64,000 bases of DNA from Chlamydiae bacterium CG10_big_fil_rev_8_21_14_0_10_42_34 (GCA_002773795.1 PFAD01000008.1:540070-604069), one strand, 5' to 3'; positions 39,961 through 48,410 are shown, counted from the first letter of the stretch. The notes: generated by a model from the letters alone, not told the origin. Made by a program: numbers and translations.

Positions 39961-40033
39961 GGGGCAATAGCTCAGTGGTTAGAGCAGCGGACTCATAACC
40001 CGTCGGTCCCTGGTTCAAGTCCAGGTTGCCCCA
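39961..40033 (+). tRNA. trnM: tRNA-Met (anticodon CAT; elongator-type or possibly Ile2-lysidine, not initiator)
   Basis: GGGGCAATAGCTCAGTGGTTAGAGCAGCGGACTCATAACCCGTCGGTCCCTGGTTCAAGTCCAGGTTGCCCCA has acceptor stem GGGGCAA/TTGCCCC with a G1-C72 pair, anticodon loop CU-CAT-AA and T-loop TTCAAGT. Confidence 0.9.
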
Positions 40034-40044
40034 TCTTTAATCTT
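39992..40044 (+). repeat. Left direct repeat (attL-like): 3' half of tRNA-Met plus about 11 nt of flank
   Basis: CTCATAACCCGTCGGTCCCTGGTTCAAGTCCAGGTTGCCCCATCTTTAATCTT recurs, slightly decayed, at 48352-48410. Confidence 0.75.
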
Positions 40045-40163
40045 GGTCACTTACGAATTTCTGGTACCTCCTGATTAGTAAATTTATCAGAACCTTGTCA
40101 GGATATCCTGTAACACTTTTCAATGTCAGCCAACCCTATTTTTAAAACTTAAAGTGGATTCTC

Positions 40164-40701
40164 TTATCGGTCTTCTCGAAATAGAGCATTTCTCTCGCTT
40201 CTAGATCTTCTACAAGCCACTGAAGTAGCGCACGTACGCTCCGCAAATTCTAGCTTTGCCGCAGGCAATTCATTTCCAGTTTTTTCGCAAATAAGGTGGA
40301 GTCGATCTGCTGCCCCTCCTAAAGGATAGATCTCGCATAAAAATGGAAGGGCTTCAATCCCAGAACTCTTTTTTTCAAGAAGCCGCATCACCTCAGCCTG
40401 ATATCCAATGATGCCTCCCATTTCCCGATAAAAGTCATCCACTTCAACAAGTTGTTTTATTAGCGCCCCCGGCATTTCACTGCTTATCGCAGCTAAGTTC
40501 TTAGGAAGTTGATCTATTGCGATGATTTGTTTCATTGCCTCTGCCTCTTTTCCAACCAATTGCGAAATGCAATTTTTCCATGGATATGCTGAGGCAAAAA
40601 AATCAATAACTCTTGAACAATGATTAAGGAACTCTTCCCGCTGATGGTTTGTCGCACCCTCTAATCATTTTAGCAAGTAGGTCAATCACAACAGATTCCA
40701 T
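40164..40701 (-). pseudogene. Frameshifted and 3'-truncated last gene of the island operon (weak resemblance to a nucleotide-sugar pyrophosphorylase N-terminus)
   Basis: The ATG at 40701 lies 1 nt after the MATE stop and reads MESVVIDLLAKMIRG… before stopping after 25 codons. The reading continues in another frame (…REEFLNHCSRVIDFF…LVGKEAEAMKQ…YPLGGAADRLHL…) and ends in a low-quality tail at 40164. The GG-x-x-x-RL motif is only suggestive. Confidence 0.35.
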
Positions 40702-40702
40702 C

Positions 40703-45266: not shown

Positions 45267-46036
45267 TAGGCGCCTTCAAATTTATCATAGGTTTGGAAGT
45301 AATCGACCTGCTTATCAGAGTCAAAAACGTCTTTAAAACACTCTAGGACAACTAGTTTTGGATGCTTGGCGATCGTATAGGCTAAATTGTTCTTCCAACT
45401 CTGAAATTTTTCAGGCGTCATGGTTCTATCGTGATATAGATGCGTGGTGGTAACGGTTTCGATAAAAGCGAAATCATATCCTCGACAATGAAGTCGGTAT
45501 GCCCATTCGCTATCTTCGAGGCCCCAAGCAACATAGTTTTCGTCAAAAAGTTCATTTAATGCCAACGCTCTTGGAACGGAAACATTGCAGGTATAGGTCA
45601 TGAACCAAGGGTAACGAAGTTCTGATATTTTTTTATCATATCTAGCTAACAGTTTTAACCTCGTATCGAGAGATTGGACGTCTCCTGCAGAATTCATATG
45701 CCGTCGAAAACCAAGGCCAACCATTTGAGGATGTTGATCATGAAAAATCCAGTGGTTCCTCACAAAATATTGATCCACAACAATATCGCTATCTAGAAAA
45801 ATCAAGATTTCACCTTTTGCTACAGCAATCCCGCTATTGCGCGCTGCTGCTGCGCCACGGTGAGAAGTTCGAATCAATCTCACATGAGAAGGAATCCGTT
45901 TTTCAATAGATTGGCTGCTTCCATCATCAATAACAATAATTTCATAATCCTTCTCACTCTGACTTGATATTGCTTGAAGGGTTTGCTCTAGATGATGAAA
46001 TCGTTCATAATAAGGAATAATTACACTTGCTTTCAC
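45266..46036 (-). CDS. Glycosyltransferase family 2
   Basis: 256 aa with SVIIPYYERF…IIVIDDGS…FLDSD and a WGLEDSEWAYRL segment. Confidence 0.82.
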   Translation of the reverse strand: MKASVIIPYYERFHHLEQTLQAISSQSEKDYEIIVIDDGSSQSIEKRIPSHVRLIRTSHRGAAAARNSGIAVAKGEILIFLDSDIVVDQYFVRNHWIFHDQHPQMVGLGFRRHMNSAGDVQSLDTRLKLLARYDKKISELRYPWFMTYTCNVSVPRALALNELFDENYVAWGLEDSEWAYRLHCRGYDFAFIETVTTTHLYHDRTMTPEKFQSWKNNLAYTIAKHPKLVVLECFKDVFDSDKQVDYFQTYDKFEGA

Positions 46037-46503
46037 TGCACAGCATCCATTTTTAAGATATTTGCTAAATGTGGTTTTTCTAAGACGTAGTATTTGCTGA
46101 TAAATTCCAAGGTTTCTTTTTGAGAAGGAAAGGCAAGCAGACTCAGTGCTTCAGAGAAAGTGCACCACTGATACTGATCATGTTCGTTTGGAGAAAGTGT
46201 GAGAGGTTGTAAATAGTTCGCAAAGGCACAAAAATTGGCGCTGAATGCAATACGTTTTTTTAATTGATCATAAAACATTGTAACATCAACATTATAAATT
46301 TCCTTACATACCAAACCAGTTTCTTCAAAAATTTCCCGCTGTACTGCCAAACTTGCAGATTCTTCCGGATTTAACTTTCCAGTGACCATCTGCCAAATAC
46401 CGGGGAGATAGCTGCGCTGTGAACGTCGTAGAAGAAGATACAAAGGTTCTTTTTCAGCGTTAGGATCTACAATATATCCCGCTACAAAGTTCGGATTTGC
46501 CAT
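46033..46503 (-). CDS. NUDIX hydrolase
   Basis: It has the Nudix box GKLNPEESASLAVQREIFEETGL (G-x5-E-x7-REUxEExGU). Confidence 0.86.
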   Translation of the reverse strand: MANPNFVAGYIVDPNAEKEPLYLLLRRSQRSYLPGIWQMVTGKLNPEESASLAVQREIFEETGLVCKEIYNVDVTMFYDQLKKRIAFSANFCAFANYLQPLTLSPNEHDQYQWCTFSEALSLLAFPSQKETLEFISKYYVLEKPHLANILKMDAVQ

Positions 46504-47980
46504 AGGAATGCTCCTCTATTAAATTTTGATTTGTTAGTTTAAATTTTGATACTGGGGCCTCTCCGCGACGCTTTCGACACATGCTGATATACGCGTTCGT
46601 AACCATGTCAATCGTAAGCATTTGGGCCTGAAGGTTTGATCTCCCCTCTCTGCCATTCAGAAAATCTGACAAACATTCAGCCCTCGCATATTCATTATAT
46701 CCAATGAAATGGTTTGATGATTCGATTTGCTTGGGGAAAAGGTCGCTTCCCTTCACAATCTCATGAGGAAGACCTCCGATAATGTCACTATTTCTGAAAA
46801 TATGGATATCAAAATGTTCTAATCCTCCAGGCGCCTGGTGATCTATAGATTGATTGTTTCGTTCCTTAATTTCATATGCTTGATAGCTATGCACCTGAAT
46901 ATTCATCAGTGGTCCCATCTGCAAACTCAACGTTTCATGACGTACCCGACCATTCCCCTTATAATTATCAATAGGAAGATGTGTCCAAGCGCGACGAGTG
47001 AAACCGGATTGCAACAGATTTAAAGAGCAAGTAGTGACAACTTGAGATCCTCGAGAAAATTCAAATAAAGCCAACATATCGAGCTCACCCATATTTAAAT
47101 ATTTTTGATTGCGCCAAAGATCATAAAATGTTGAATAACCACCTTGTTTGAATGCACGCAAATAAAAAGATTCATCTAAGGCAAATAGTTGGTCATGGGG
47201 ACTGTAATGAGAGGAAGTGACAAGACAATCGGACGGTCTTTTCTCAGGAGAAAGTTGATCGTATGAGAGCAACAGATTTGCCAAGTCGATAAAATGGTAT
47301 CCGCTATGAAAAAGTTTGCCGTAGCCGTATTTATAGGGATGATTTTCTCGAGAGAAAAACTCATCTGGCATATTCAAACTGCCATCACAGTGAGTAATGT
47401 GAATATGAGAAACTGGAAGGGCATACTCATGAATTAATGTTCCTACCCTGTCGATTATCCATCGATATCGAGGGTCATAGCGCCGTTGGCATTGGACGAC
47501 TACCGGAGTATTATAGCTTTCAGCTAACGAAAGTAGATGATGGTATTCGGCTGATATTTTTCTTGCTTGTTCTTCATTATTGATTACATCTACTGGCGAA
47601 GTGATCGGTTTGTCAGTGAGGGTCGGGATCTGTTTAATAATAAGATATTGAAGGTATGCATAATGCGCTTTAGGCTCTGTACTAATAATAGCGTGAGAAA
47701 TCTGATGCGAAACGATCAATCGATCAAGATTTGATTGGACATAATCTGACAGAACTGTAGCATCCCGCTCTTCGTCCGGAATAAAAAAGAGTTCGGAAGC
47801 AAGACCTCTCTCTCTGACAAAAGCCTCAACATCTCTACGTTTAGATTCAATATCAATAATAAGAGCGGGGCTCAAATCAAATCGTTTAAGACCTGCTATA
47901 TAAATCCGTTTACAATGAGGACCTAGACCAATGAGAAGAACTTTCTGTTTCACGACATATCCAAAATAACTAGAAAACAA
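46460..47980 (-). CDS. Gfo/Idh/MocA-like NAD(P)-dependent oxidoreductase (first gene of island operon)
   Basis: It has the N-terminal Rossmann segment KVLLIGLGPH and a …ISTEPKAHYAYLQYLIIKQIPTLTDKPIT segment, resembling the E-K-P motif region of the family. The C-terminal region is long. The probable start is the GTG at 47953. The 3' end overlaps the NUDIX gene by 44 nt. Confidence 0.6.
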   Translation of the reverse strand: MFSSYFGYVVKQKVLLIGLGPHCKRIYIAGLKRFDLSPALIIDIESKRRDVEAFVRERGLASELFFIPDEERDATVLSDYVQSNLDRLIVSHQISHAIISTEPKAHYAYLQYLIIKQIPTLTDKPITSPVDVINNEEQARKISAEYHHLLSLAESYNTPVVVQCQRRYDPRYRWIIDRVGTLIHEYALPVSHIHITHCDGSLNMPDEFFSRENHPYKYGYGKLFHSGYHFIDLANLLLSYDQLSPEKRPSDCLVTSSHYSPHDQLFALDESFYLRAFKQGGYSTFYDLWRNQKYLNMGELDMLALFEFSRGSQVVTTCSLNLLQSGFTRRAWTHLPIDNYKGNGRVRHETLSLQMGPLMNIQVHSYQAYEIKERNNQSIDHQAPGGLEHFDIHIFRNSDIIGGLPHEIVKGSDLFPKQIESSNHFIGYNEYARAECLSDFLNGREGRSNLQAQMLTIDMVTNAYISMCRKRRGEAPVSKFKLTNQNLIEEHSYGKSELCSGIYCRS

Positions 47981-48351
47981 ATCTTTTATTTTTGCACAGA
48001 TTCATTTTTTAAATATAATATAACCAGAAACATTTAATCAATATCTATCAACAGATAAAAAATTAATTAAAAAATATAATCCGAATATATATTTTTTCGA
48101 ATTTAAACTATGGTTGAGAATTTCCTTAGAGAGCTTTCCCTAGACCAAGGGAATAGTGGAAAAGAAATTTCAAATCACAGAACAATCATATGGAGGAGGT
48201 TTTTCTTACCATTGCGGTGCAAAAACGGTGCAGTGATTTACCTACTGAACCGGCGCAAACCGACAAATACCGATAGACTTCTCTAAATTTCCTCTATGTA
48301 ATTGAGCCCATTGAGGTTGGGTCGTGTTGGGTGAAGACGTAGTTCTCCTCC

Positions 48352-48410
48352 CTCATAACCCGCCGGGCCTTAGGTATCAAGTCCAGGTTGCCCCATTTTC
48401 TTTAACTCTT
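48352..48410 (+). repeat. Right direct repeat (attR-like): decayed copy of the tRNA-Met 3' half, with no 5' half
   Basis: In CTCATAACCCGCCGGGCCTTAGGTATCAAGTCCAGGTTGCCCCATTTTCTTTAACTCTT, the first 11 nt and the 19-nt core CAAGTCCAGGTTGCCCCAT are identical to tRNA-Met 39992-40034. The T-arm 5' side is degenerate. Confidence 0.75.

What the first reader, a model, noticed from the sequence alone, without database searches (positions are those of the whole stretch)
39961..48410. tRNA-Met followed 8.3 kb later by a decayed copy of its own 3' half: attL/attR-like scars of an integrated island
The segment from the anticodon loop to the 3' end of tRNA-Met(CAT), plus about 11 nt of flank (39992-40044), recurs in direct orientation at 48352-48410. 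The first 11 nt and a 19-nt core (CAAGTCCAGGTTGCCCCAT) are identical, and part of the flank (TCTTTAA..TCTT) also matches. The T-arm 5' side has drifted and there is no 5' half, so the second copy is not a gene. This is the classic footprint of site-specific integration into a tRNA 3' end. The enclosed DNA is a single accessory operon that looks more AT-rich by eye than the rpoBC core. No intact integrase is present, which suggests an old, immobilised island.
Basis: partly seen in the sequence, partly recalled or inferred. Interest (0 to 1): 0.75.

Follow-up and report, generated by a model that had tools for sequence, protein, structure and literature searches.

The report
Integrase-less island at a chlamydial tRNA hotspot
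An 8.3-kb sugar-metabolism operon in an uncultured groundwater Chlamydia sits between an intact tRNA gene and a partial copy of that tRNA's 3' part, which is the ordinary signature of a mobile island inserted at a tRNA, here at a site that related bacteria fill with other, integrase-bearing islands.

Summary
tRNA(CAT) at 39961-40033 has a direct partial copy at 48352-48410. The copy covers tRNA positions 32-73 plus about 11 nt of flank, matches in 50 of 59 columns, and scores 67 against at most 23 elsewhere in the window. It is not a tRNA gene.

The att-scar reading is supported by comparison. About 20 related Chlamydiota loci share the left flank (MFS, DUF1207 and onward) and the tRNA. None shares anything to the right of the tRNA. 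Seven have a tyrosine integrase 128-350 nt after the tRNA. In one of these, a perfect 42-nt repeat begins at the same position 32.

Three details need correcting.
- **The "drift" is not local decay.** The same four differences occur in five copies from four other lineages.
- **Low GC does not stop at 48.4 kb.** It starts at the tRNA and runs to the end of the window.
- **The tRNA is probably tRNA-Ile2(CAU).**

No integrase remains. A UGP3-like gene cut to its first 200 codons lies 135 nt from the tRNA, which points to a deletion there. The eight-gene cargo operon recurs as a block at other sites in other Chlamydiae.

This is a new member of a known kind, resembling a cis-mobilizable element. 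No empty site was found.

The parts
38532..39806 (-). MFS transporter. It is the last gene of the conserved core synteny block to the left of the tRNA.
   Evidence: Pfam MFS_1. Orthologues at 44-85% identity lie next to the same tRNA in about 20 related loci, followed by DUF1207, GT10, a 714-aa protein and PBP in the same order.
39961..40033 (+). Intact tRNA with a CAT anticodon (called Met by ARAGORN, probably tRNA-Ile2). It is the attL side and marks the boundary between core and variable DNA.
   Evidence: ARAGORN. Rfam tRNA model 69.9 bits. The sequence is nearly identical in all relatives. The best E. coli match is annotated tRNA-Ile.
39992..40044 (+). Left copy of the direct repeat: tRNA positions 32-73 plus about 11 nt of flank.
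   Evidence: Alignment score 67 against a background of at most 23. Also found by the repeat finder as families D2 and D15.
40034..40168 (.). 135-nt spacer between the tRNA 3' end and the truncated gene. This is where relatives have the start of their integrase gene.
   Evidence: In relatives the integrase starts 128-350 nt after the tRNA. The spacer shows no significant similarity to the corresponding arms of relatives.
40169..40646 (-). Pseudogene: the N-terminal part (about residues 16-200 of 670-710) of a UGP3-like UDP-sugar pyrophosphorylase. It has an internal 28-residue gap and a frameshift at 40233/40234. It breaks off while pointing toward the tRNA.
   Evidence: HMMER against 1.84 billion representatives gives homologues mostly 570-735 aa long that match at their residues about 60-210. 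Three of these homologues carry Pfam UDPGP plus Hexapep_UGP3_C. tblastn alignment confirms the extent and the frameshift.
40703..42073 (-). MATE family transporter, the last gene of the cargo operon.
   Evidence: Pfam MatE and NCBIfam TIGR00797 at 147.9 bits against a cutoff of 147.4.
42070..42753 (-). 227-aa protein with only a weak alpha/beta-hydrolase signal.
   Evidence: Pfam Abhydrolase_1 at E=0.006 only. It is conserved at the same operon position in L028, L030, L031 and L032.
42750..43889 (-). Family 2 glycosyltransferase fused to TPR repeats.
   Evidence: Pfam Glycos_transf_2 plus TPR families.
43876..44601 (-). Alpha/beta hydrolase.
   Evidence: Pfam Abhydrolase_1 and Abhydrolase_6.
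44601..45266 (-). dTMP-kinase-like P-loop kinase.
   Evidence: Pfam Thymidylate_kin. PDB thymidylate kinases match at E=1.5e-10. The score is below the NCBIfam equivalog cutoff.
45266..46036 (-). Family 2 glycosyltransferase.
   Evidence: Pfam Glycos_transf_2. NCBIfam gives an EpsD-like match below its cutoff.
46033..46503 (-). NUDIX hydrolase.
   Evidence: Pfam NUDIX. In many homologues this domain is fused to the upstream oxidoreductase-like protein.
46460..47980 (-). 506-aa Gfo/Idh/MocA-like oxidoreductase, the first gene of the cargo operon.
   Evidence: Weak Pfam GFO_IDH_MocA match at E=0.0011. 1239 homologues were found, many annotated with PF01408 and some fused to NUDIX.
48307..48351 (+). 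Arm sequence immediately left of the partial copy (...GGTTGGGTCGTGTTGGGTGAAGACGTAGTTCTCCTCC). It is related to the arm next to the far repeat of the integrase-bearing island in L009 and to the arm in L033.
   Evidence: The 60-nt arm scores above all 2000 shuffles against L009. L033 aligns to window 48307-48396 at 82% over 91 nt, E=7e-18. See also alignment A1.
48352..48410 (+). Partial tRNA copy (positions 32-73 in a conserved variant form, plus flank). This is the attR-type site and is not a gene.
   Evidence: No ARAGORN or Rfam hit. Alignment. The variant is shared with L024 (two copies), L033 and L034/L035.
48604..48852 (+). Fragment of a short-chain dehydrogenase gene (82 codons) just outside the repeat. 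It lies in the variable DNA to the right.
   Evidence: Pfam adh_short positions 1-73 of 195 only. The next ORF has no match.

Best explanation
**What it is.** The tRNA(CAT) gene at 39961-40033 is a hotspot for tyrosine-recombinase integrative elements in this lineage of environmental Chlamydiota. The window comes from 'Chlamydiae bacterium CG10_big_fil_rev_8_21_14_0_10_42_34'. The 8.3-kb block from 40034 to 48351 is an island that entered by site-specific recombination at the 3' part of this tRNA. The tRNA stayed intact at one end (attL). A partial copy, covering positions 32-73 plus a few flank bases and preceded by element-type arm DNA, sits at the other end (attR).

**What happened since.** The island lost its integrase. 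This most likely happened through a deletion next to the tRNA that also removed the 3' three-quarters of a UGP3-like sugar-nucleotide pyrophosphorylase gene. What remains is an att-flanked element without recombination genes. It resembles a cis-mobilizable element (CIME) and cannot move on its own.

**What it carries.** The cargo is an eight-gene operon: Gfo/Idh/MocA-like oxidoreductase, NUDIX, GT2, dTMP-kinase-like kinase, hydrolase, GT2-TPR, a 227-aa protein and a MATE transporter. It most likely makes and exports a sugar-containing compound or surface glycan. The same operon moves as a block among Chlamydiae.

**The far site.** The far copy is not a randomly decayed copy. Its variant core is a conserved sequence type found at such sites in several lineages. 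This suggests it came in with the element, with strand exchange in the identical T-loop-to-3'-end block.

**Shown versus inferred.** Shown: the repeat, the hotspot, the integrases in relatives, the absence of an integrase here, the truncated gene, the shared variant, and the operon occurring as a block at different genomic sites. Inferred: that one element brought this operon, that a deletion removed the integrase, where the crossover lies, and what the operon does.
For: - **Repeat.** Score 67 against at most 23 elsewhere in the window. Only one functional tRNA is present.
- **Synteny break at the tRNA.** The left flank is syntenic in about 20 relatives. Nothing to the right of the tRNA is shared with the window or among the relatives, apart from integrases (6 loci) and an AbiEii toxin gene shared by 3 loci.
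- **Integrases in relatives.** Pfam Phage_integrase genes lie 128-350 nt after the orthologous tRNA in L008, L009, L010, L012, L018, L019 and L037.
- **Same repeat start.** L009 has tRNA, integrase, AbiEi/AbiEii, about 7.4 kb of island, a perfect 42-nt repeat of positions 32-73, and then a second integrase. The L024 and L033 copies also start at position 32, and the L034 copy starts at position 29.
- **Related arm.** The arm left of the window's copy is significantly similar to L009's (0 of 2000 shuffles) and aligns with L033 at 82% over 91 nt.
- **Shared variant core.** Seen in alignment A2 and in the metagenome pattern scan.
- **Truncated gene by the tRNA.** UGP3-like pseudogene 135 nt from the tRNA.
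- **Composition.** GC and GC3 drop at the tRNA.
- **Cargo operon as a block.** It is conserved in order at other sites in L028, L030, L031 (beside an IS66 transposase) and L032. In L032 it lies 3.3 kb downstream of the same kind of tRNA, with IS elements between.
- **CIME concept.** Defined in PMC5704250. A tRNA-Gly-associated island bounded by short direct repeats is already described in Protochlamydia (PMC548262).
Against: - No empty site, with the tRNA joined to the DNA right of 48410, was found in any relative or metagenome contig. Insertion of this particular block is therefore not directly shown.
- No integrase remnant is detectable, and the 135 nt next to the tRNA do not resemble the corresponding arms of relatives.
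- The DNA right of the far copy is equally AT-rich and equally non-syntenic. The two sites could therefore stem from different events in a tandem array.
- If strand exchange were in the anticodon loop, as the repeat start at position 32 and the perfect L009 repeat suggest, the far copy would be displaced host DNA. Its variant should then not be shared between lineages. The crossover position is unresolved (note 3).
- The operon lacks any mobility gene of its own, and its function is not established.
Confidence: 0.78

Rival explanations
1. The two sites come from different events in a tandem array (accretion). The far copy would be the end of an older or different element, or the internal junction of a composite. 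The operon would have arrived between the sites by another route, such as IS-mediated transfer, homologous recombination or replacement of earlier cargo. On this reading 40034-48351 was never one mobile unit.
For: - The variable, AT-rich, non-syntenic DNA continues from 48411 to at least 64000.
- L009 and L024 show tandem arrangements at the same tRNA.
- In L031 and L032 the same operon is flanked by IS transposases rather than att sites.
- The variant core is shared across lineages although the cargo differs.
Against: - No other tRNA fragment is found in the window on either strand, with a best score of 23.
- The operon fills the interval between the two sites almost exactly.
- The element-type arm lies directly next to the operon's promoter-side end.
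- No IS remnant was seen inside the block.
Confidence: 0.15
2. The tRNA gene was duplicated locally, as a tandem or segmental duplication, and one copy then decayed and lost its 5' half. No site-specific recombination would be involved.
For: L017 has two full-length, nearly identical copies of this tRNA 3.9 kb apart, with surface-protein genes between them and no integrase.
Against: - The copy ends sharply at position 32, the same boundary as the perfect repeat of an integrase-bearing island in L009.
- The DNA left of the copy resembles element arms, not the region upstream of the tRNA.
- The differences from the tRNA are shared with four other lineages, so they are not random decay.
Confidence: 0.04
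3. The far copy is a conserved functional element in its own right, such as a small RNA, a regulatory site or a decoy site. It would be kept by selection in the host, and its resemblance to the tRNA would be incidental to island biology.
For: The 44-nt variant core is 93-98% identical in four of the five other copies (84% in the second L024 copy), in lineages whose MFS proteins are only 44-68% identical to the window's. The arms next to it have diverged much more.
Against: - No Rfam family matches.
- The fold is no more stable than shuffled sequence, with z from +0.2 to -0.6.
- No terminator-like site was found.
- Its position and orientation relative to neighbouring genes differ between loci.
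Confidence: 0.03

Closest known systems
tRNA-integrated genomic islands and integrative elements of the tyrosine-recombinase type (the class catalogued in the Islander database; sublocation classes of Williams 2002, cited from my own knowledge)
   Same: There is an intact tRNA at one end and a direct repeat of the tRNA's 3' part at the other. The repeat starts at the anticodon loop and runs past the 3' end. Accessory cargo of lower GC lies between. The same tRNA is occupied by integrase-bearing islands in relatives.
   Different: No integrase is present here. The far repeat has a conserved variant core instead of a perfect or randomly decayed copy. No empty site is known.
CIMEs, the cis-mobilizable elements of Streptococcus thermophilus and others (definition in PMC5704250; Pavlovic et al. 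2004 as cited there)
   Same: [quoted passage not shown] It sits at a site where related elements accrete in tandem, as L009 shows.
   Different: CIMEs were shown experimentally to be mobilised by an incoming ICE, and nothing of the kind is shown here. No conjugation genes are seen in any of the related islands. The target is a tRNA gene rather than the 3' end of fda.
Pam100G, the 100-kb genomic island of Protochlamydia amoebophila UWE25 (PMC548262)
   Same: It is a genomic island in an environmental chlamydia next to tRNA genes. It is bounded by short direct repeats and has an internal third repeat that suggests a modular history.
   Different: Pam100G is 100 kb, lies at tandem tRNA-Gly genes, has 17-bp repeats and carries an F-like tra operon and transposases. 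The block here is 8.3 kb, lies at tRNA(CAT), has a repeat of about 55 nt and carries only a metabolic operon.

Membership tests
tRNA-integrated genomic island (tyrosine-recombinase type) | An intact tRNA gene forms one boundary. | tested here: met
   ARAGORN and the Rfam tRNA model (69.9 bits) place it at 39961-40033.
tRNA-integrated genomic island (tyrosine-recombinase type) | A direct repeat of the tRNA's 3' part forms the other boundary. | tested here: met
   48352-48410 scores 67 against a background of at most 23. It has the same start position 32 as the perfect repeat in L009.
tRNA-integrated genomic island (tyrosine-recombinase type) | An integrase gene lies next to the tRNA. | tested here: not met
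   tblastn with the L008 and L018 integrases finds only noise in the window. Pfam finds no recombinase among the island's ORFs. Relatives do have one at this position.
tRNA-integrated genomic island (tyrosine-recombinase type) | The block is absent from the orthologous site in relatives, ideally with an empty site. | tested here: inconclusive
   None of about 20 relatives has the block at the site. None shows an empty site joined to the window's right flank either. They carry other cargo there.
tRNA-integrated genomic island (tyrosine-recombinase type) | Composition differs from the surrounding genome. | tested here: inconclusive
   GC is 40.0% against 43.6% on the left, with GC3 p=0.0005. The right flank is 39.6%, so the step is one-sided.
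tRNA-integrated genomic island (tyrosine-recombinase type) | Excision or a circular form can be demonstrated. | not testable with these tools
   This needs read-level data or an experiment. Pattern scans of IMG/VR found no free form.
CIME (cis-mobilizable element) | Both att sites are retained. | tested here: met
   Both repeat copies are present at the sequence level. Whether they still function is unknown.
CIME (cis-mobilizable element) | Integration and transfer genes are absent. | tested here: met
   Pfam and NCBIfam find only metabolic and transport genes. No integrase is found.
CIME (cis-mobilizable element) | The element derives from an autonomous element by deletion. | tested here: inconclusive
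   A gene truncated 135 nt from the tRNA shows that a deletion occurred at the spot where relatives have the integrase. No remnant of a recombination or transfer gene is left.
CIME (cis-mobilizable element) | The element can be mobilised in cis by an incoming related element. | not testable with these tools
   This needs an experiment. Tandem islands at the same tRNA in L009 show that accretion does occur at this site.
Second functional tRNA gene at 48.35 kb | The sequence forms a complete cloverleaf recognised by tRNA models. | tested here: not met
   There is no ARAGORN call and no Rfam tRNA hit at E<=1. The 5' half is absent and the T arm is disrupted by two insertions.
tRNA-Met (elongator or initiator) as the identity of the target gene | The body of the tRNA matches Met isoacceptors rather than the CAU-anticodon tRNA-Ile2. 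| tested here: not met
   The best match in all 5426 E. coli genomes (87.7% over positions 8-64) is annotated tRNA-Ile. The antisense strand matches Rfam Plastid-ycf2 5'UTR below that family's threshold; I recall, but did not test, that this element adjoins the plastid trnI-CAU gene. No isotype-specific tRNA model was available.
Prophage | Phage structural, packaging or lysis genes are present. | tested here: not met
   Pfam and NCBIfam find none among the nine ORFs. The att patterns are absent from IMG/VR.

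The most novel reading that the evidence does not exclude
Environmental Chlamydiota may host a family of small integrative elements that target tRNA-Ile2(CAU). Their far-end att site would carry a specific, selectively maintained non-tRNA variant core (GGGCCTTMGGTATCAAG in place of GGTCCCTGGTTCAAG). 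Integrase-less members, such as this operon-carrying block, would remain mobilisable in trans or in cis by the integrases of sibling elements at the same hotspot. That would give obligate intracellular bacteria a route for exchanging whole metabolic operons.
Probability: 0.25. Interest if true: 0.55.

Novelty: new member of a known kind. Interest (0 to 1): 0.35.

Why it matters
Islands inserted at tRNA genes are textbook biology, so the basic finding is ordinary. Its value is local.

- It marks one tRNA gene as the boundary between conserved core and a fast-turning variable region across a whole group of uncultured Chlamydiota.
- At least two integrase types, about 33% identical to each other, use the site, along with abortive-infection (AbiE) and glycan or metabolite cargo.
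- It shows that an eight-gene sugar-related operon moves as a block in these intracellular bacteria.

The shared variant att core is the one feature that simple decay does not explain. It could be used as a sequence tag to find more of these elements.

Tried and rejected
- **Empty site.** I looked among 18 GTDB relatives, in the closest metagenomic relatives by MFS protein at 79-85% identity, and in contigs carrying identical proteins. None was found. All same-species contigs carry the island, and all other relatives carry different cargo.
- **JGI contig break in the tRNA.** I first read the break at window position 40020 as a sign of with/without-island variants. The neighbouring contig overlaps it by about 46 nt and continues into the island. 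It is therefore most simply an assembly-graph break at a conserved tRNA.
- **Integrase remnants.** tblastn with two integrase types found nothing.
- **Arm next to the tRNA.** The 135 nt next to the tRNA showed no significant similarity to relatives' arms.
- **Far copy as an RNA or terminator.** Rfam, folding against shuffles and a terminator scan were all negative.
- **Variant core or arm-core junction in viral contigs.** No hits.
- **Cargo function.** PDB sequence searches gave nothing for the 506-aa protein and only generic thymidylate kinases for the kinase. NCBIfam gave only sub-threshold glycosyltransferase matches and a MATE match barely over its cutoff.
- **SDR fragment right of the copy.** Its link to the SDR gene next to the tRNA in L032 is only generic N-terminal similarity (36% over 61 residues), with a different orientation and side. 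I rejected it as coincidence.
- **DNA beyond the window's end.** A look-up with the last window protein returned only a short contig.

Full report
**1. The observation**

ARAGORN finds three tRNAs in the window. Only one is near the finding: tRNA(CAT) at 39961-40033 on the + strand.

The sequence at 48352-48410 reads CTCATAACCCGCCGGGCCTTAGGTATCAAGTCCAGGTTGCCCCATTTTCTTTAACTCTT. The tRNA from position 32 onward reads CTCATAACCCGTCGGTCCCTGGTTCAAGTCCAGGTTGCCCCATCTTTAATCTT.

A local alignment gives 50 identities in 59 columns and a score of 67. The same query scores at most 23 anywhere else in the 64-kb window on either strand. The repeat is therefore far above chance.

The copy has no 5' half. ARAGORN does not call it, and the Rfam tRNA model does not hit it even at E<=1.

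**2. What lies between and around the two sites**

The interval holds one tightly packed minus-strand gene string with overlapping or abutting start and stop codons. In transcription order:

| Coordinates | Product |
|---|---|
| 46460-47980 | 506-aa Gfo/Idh/MocA-like protein |
| 46033-46503 | NUDIX hydrolase |
| 45266-46036 | GT2 glycosyltransferase |
| 44601-45266 | dTMP-kinase-like kinase |
| 43876-44601 | alpha/beta hydrolase |
| 42750-43889 | GT2 fused to TPR repeats |
| 42070-42753 | 227-aa protein |
| 40703-42073 | MATE transporter |

Between the MATE gene and the tRNA lies a 131-codon ORF with no Pfam match. A full HMMER search of 1.84 billion representative proteins shows what it is. 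It matches residues about 60-210 of proteins mostly 570-735 aa long. Three of those that I scanned carry UDPGP plus the UGP3-type C-terminal hexapeptide domain.

tblastn shows that only residues about 16-200 survive, at 40646-40169. There is a 28-residue internal gap and a frameshift at 40233/40234. The gene points toward the tRNA and breaks off 135 nt from it. A deletion has therefore occurred right next to the tRNA.

To the right of the far copy lie:
- an 82-codon fragment of a short-chain dehydrogenase gene;
- a 595-aa membrane protein;
- a methyltransferase, a GNAT acetyltransferase, a GT2 and a DegT-type aminotransferase;
- two very large proteins with no domain match.

To the left of the tRNA lie an MFS transporter, DUF1207, a GT10 fucosyltransferase and further core genes, extending back to the rpoBC and ribosomal-protein region.

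**3. Composition**

| Region | GC | Length-weighted GC3 |
|---|---|---|
| Left of the tRNA | 43.6% | 40.6% |
| Island | 40.0% | 34.2% |
| Right of the far copy, to the window's end | 39.6% | 36.2% |

The left-versus-island GC3 difference is significant (Mann-Whitney p=0.0005). The island differs little from the right side (p=0.04, with the island slightly lower), and left versus right is not significant (profile).

The compositional step is therefore at the tRNA, not at 48.4 kb.

**4. Source and relatives**

Proteins in the window are identical to proteins of 'Chlamydiae bacterium CG10_big_fil_rev_8_21_14_0_10_42_34'. The window lies on a 629-kb contig. All contigs that carry identical proteins also carry the island.

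A scan of one genome per species with the MFS protein returned 18 loci from Chlamydiota and Parachlamydiales MAGs at 44-78% identity. Later look-ups added closer relatives at 79-85%.

In all of these loci that reach far enough, the left flank is syntenic with the window. The order is MFS, DUF1207, usually GT10, the 714-aa protein, PBP and so on. Most of them have the same tRNA, nearly identical in sequence, next to the MFS gene.

None has any homologue of the island genes or of the genes right of the far copy within 10 kb of the tRNA. The one exception is a 47%-identical GNAT in L021.

Among the relatives themselves, the only gene family downstream of the tRNA found in more than three loci is an integrase, in six. 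An AbiEii toxin gene is shared by three (L009, L015, L016). The tRNA is therefore the edge of a hypervariable region throughout this group.

**5. The hotspot is served by integrases**

Pfam Phage_integrase genes lie directly after the orthologous tRNA, co-oriented with it and starting 128-350 nt downstream. They occur in L008, L009, L010, L012 (cut by the contig end), L018, L019 and L037. At least two types, about 33% identical to each other, are involved. The closest relative, L036 at 85%, has the downstream arm of the L012-type element.

L009 gives a complete model of an active island:
- the tRNA;
- an integrase;
- an AbiEi/AbiEii toxin-antitoxin pair and hypothetical genes;
- a perfect 42-nt repeat of tRNA positions 32-73, 7.4 kb away;
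- a second integrase, marking a tandem island.

The window's repeat starts at the same position 32.

Partial copies also occur in other relatives:

| Locus | tRNA positions covered | Distance from the tRNA |
|---|---|---|
| L024 (two copies) | 32-73 | 3.7 and 6.8 kb |
| L011 | 28-73 | 1.2 kb |
| L021 | 47-73 | 4.2 kb |
| L034 | 29-73 | 4.65 kb |

The 60 nt left of the window's copy is significantly similar to the arm left of L009's repeat (score 11 against 3.4 +/- 1.7, 0 of 2000 shuffles). L009's arm is in turn similar to L024's. A metagenome contig, L033, aligns to window 48307-48396 at 82% over 91 nt.

Taken together, these results make the att-site reading of the window's repeat well founded.

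**6. The far copy is not randomly decayed**

The window's copy differs from its tRNA by T47G, C50T and two single-base insertions in the 5' strand of the T arm, plus one T-to-C change at position 43.

Exactly the first four differences are found in both L024 copies. An exact-pattern scan of JGI metagenome contigs found them in three more contigs: L033, and L034/L035, which look like one lineage.

Alignment A2 shows the split clearly. Five partial copies share GGGCCTT[A/C]GGTATCAAG. Four host tRNAs and the L009 repeat share GGTCCCTGG--TTCAAG. The host MFS proteins of these lineages are only 44-68% identical to the window's, and the arms beside the core have diverged much more than the core.

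Independent decay cannot produce this pattern. Either the variant travels with the elements, or it is held by some constraint.

The element-borne reading would work as follows. The variant would be the element's own core site. Strand exchange would fall in the identical 20-nt block from the T loop to the 3' end, so the host tRNA is never damaged.

There are two difficulties.
- The repeat start at position 32 and the perfect L009 repeat point instead to exchange in the anticodon loop. Under that model the far copy would be displaced host DNA (note 3).
- All three fully visible variant-type loci (window, L024, L034) lack an integrase. L034 even has AbiEi/AbiEii directly after the tRNA, which looks like L009 without its integrase.

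I could not resolve this. Folding, terminator and Rfam tests give no sign of an RNA function.

**7. The cargo moves as a block**

The 506-aa protein has more than 1200 homologues, many fused to a NUDIX domain.

The operon, seven or eight genes in the same order, occurs in four other loci. L028 and L032 look chlamydial from their neighbouring genes; L030 and L031 come from unnamed metagenome contigs.

| Locus | Source | Amino-acid identity | Context |
|---|---|---|---|
| L028 | GCA_000829755.1 | 41-63% | not beside a tRNA(CAT) gene |
| L030 | metagenome contig | 55-69% | MATE gene missing |
| L031 | metagenome contig | 49-71% | IS66 transposase beside it |
| L032 | GCA_041156605.1 | 43-61% | 3.3 kb downstream of the same kind of tRNA(CAT) gene, with three IS-type genes between |

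These are different genomic places, with no tRNA fragments beside the operon in L028, L030 and L031.

The gene content is an oxidoreductase of a sugar-acting superfamily, a NUDIX hydrolase, a nucleotide-kinase-like protein, two GT2s, two hydrolases, a MATE exporter, and in the window a dead sugar-nucleotide pyrophosphorylase gene. It suggests synthesis and export of a sugar-containing product. This is inference from family names only.

**8. Identity of the tRNA**

ARAGORN calls it Met from the CAT anticodon. Its best match in all 5426 complete E. coli genomes (87.7% over positions 8-64) is annotated tRNA-Ile. Its antisense strand matches the Rfam Plastid-ycf2 5'UTR family at 45.5 bits, below that family's gathering score of 65.7. 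From memory, and not tested here, that element lies next to the plastid trnI-CAU gene.

It is therefore probably the lysidine-dependent tRNA-Ile2. No isotype-specific model was available to confirm this.

**9. Conclusion**

The repeat is real, and the attL/attR interpretation is the best explanation (confidence about 0.8). The block is best described as an integrase-less, att-flanked island that resembles a cis-mobilizable element in the sense of PMC5704250. It sits at a tRNA hotspot and forms part of a larger variable region.

The kind is well known, including in environmental chlamydiae (Pam100G, PMC548262).

Still unshown are an empty site, excision, the crossover position, that one element delivered the operon, and what the operon makes. 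The conserved variant core is the only unexpected feature.

Noticed in passing
window 39961-40033: The tRNA called Met from its CAT anticodon is most similar to E. coli genes annotated tRNA-Ile (87.7% over positions 8-64). Its antisense strand matches Rfam Plastid-ycf2 5'UTR below that family's threshold. It is probably tRNA-Ile2(CAU).
   Followed up: partly
window 40169-40646 (-): A frameshifted N-terminal fifth of a UGP3-like UDP-sugar pyrophosphorylase gene, whose full-length homologues are mostly 570-735 aa. UGP3 is the plant chloroplast enzyme for sulfolipid synthesis (from my own knowledge, not tested here), so bacterial relatives in a chlamydia may be of interest.
   Followed up: yes
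window 48604-49104 (+): Only the first 73 profile positions of a short-chain dehydrogenase survive as an 82-codon ORF, and the following 83-codon ORF has no match. This looks like another decayed gene just outside the far repeat.
   Followed up: partly
window 49260-54552: A 595-aa many-helix membrane protein, a methyltransferase, a GNAT, a GT2 and a DegT-type aminotransferase lie together. The set recalls amino-sugar lipid or glycan modification clusters (Arn-like, from memory). It is followed by 1843-aa and 959-aa proteins with no domain match. None of these is found near the tRNA in relatives.
   Followed up: no
L001/L002 position 1 and the end of L003 (about window 39975-40020): Three JGI contigs from two samples end inside the tRNA gene, and contigs from the two sides overlap by about 46 nt. 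This is most simply an assembly-graph break at a tRNA sequence shared by co-occurring chlamydiae.
   Followed up: partly
L017 5896-5969 and 9833-9905: Two full-length, nearly identical copies of the same tRNA lie 3.9 kb apart. Between them are a 780-aa protein made of eight CarboxypepD_reg repeats and an outer-membrane beta-barrel protein, and there is no integrase.
   Followed up: partly
L024 2165-2350 / 5307-5491 and 3039-3338 / 6991-7290: In the complete chromosome OZ253438.1 the two variant partial copies lie in a segmental repeat of about 3.1-3.9 kb at about 90% identity. Each unit carries a TPR protein paralogue, and neither has an integrase.
   Followed up: partly
L009 1-9130; L037 1-4510; L034 2160-6860: AbiEi/AbiEii abortive-infection toxin-antitoxin pairs are recurrent cargo of the islands at this tRNA. 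In L009 and L037 they come with an integrase. In L034 they do not.
   Followed up: partly
L032 5836-17237: In GCA_041156605.1 the same eight-gene operon lies 3.3 kb downstream of the same kind of tRNA(CAT) gene, with three IS-type genes (rve, HTH_Tnp_1, DUF4096) between. Its orientation relative to the tRNA is opposite to that in the window.
   Followed up: partly
homologues of window 46460-47980 and 46033-46503: Many homologues of the 506-aa oxidoreductase-like protein are about 650 aa and carry a C-terminal NUDIX domain. The two adjacent window genes therefore probably act together on one substrate.
   Followed up: no
L033 3886-7094: The cargo next to the variant copy in this metagenome contig is a different small-molecule-type set: ThiF, a formyltransferase, a HIT protein and an AAA_33 kinase.
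   Followed up: no
L027 10001-11476: The closest homologue of the 506-aa protein (85% identity), in a bin labelled Verrucomicrobia whose cluster mates are labelled Chlamydiales, stands alone without the rest of the operon. It lies among glycogen-metabolism genes.
   Followed up: no
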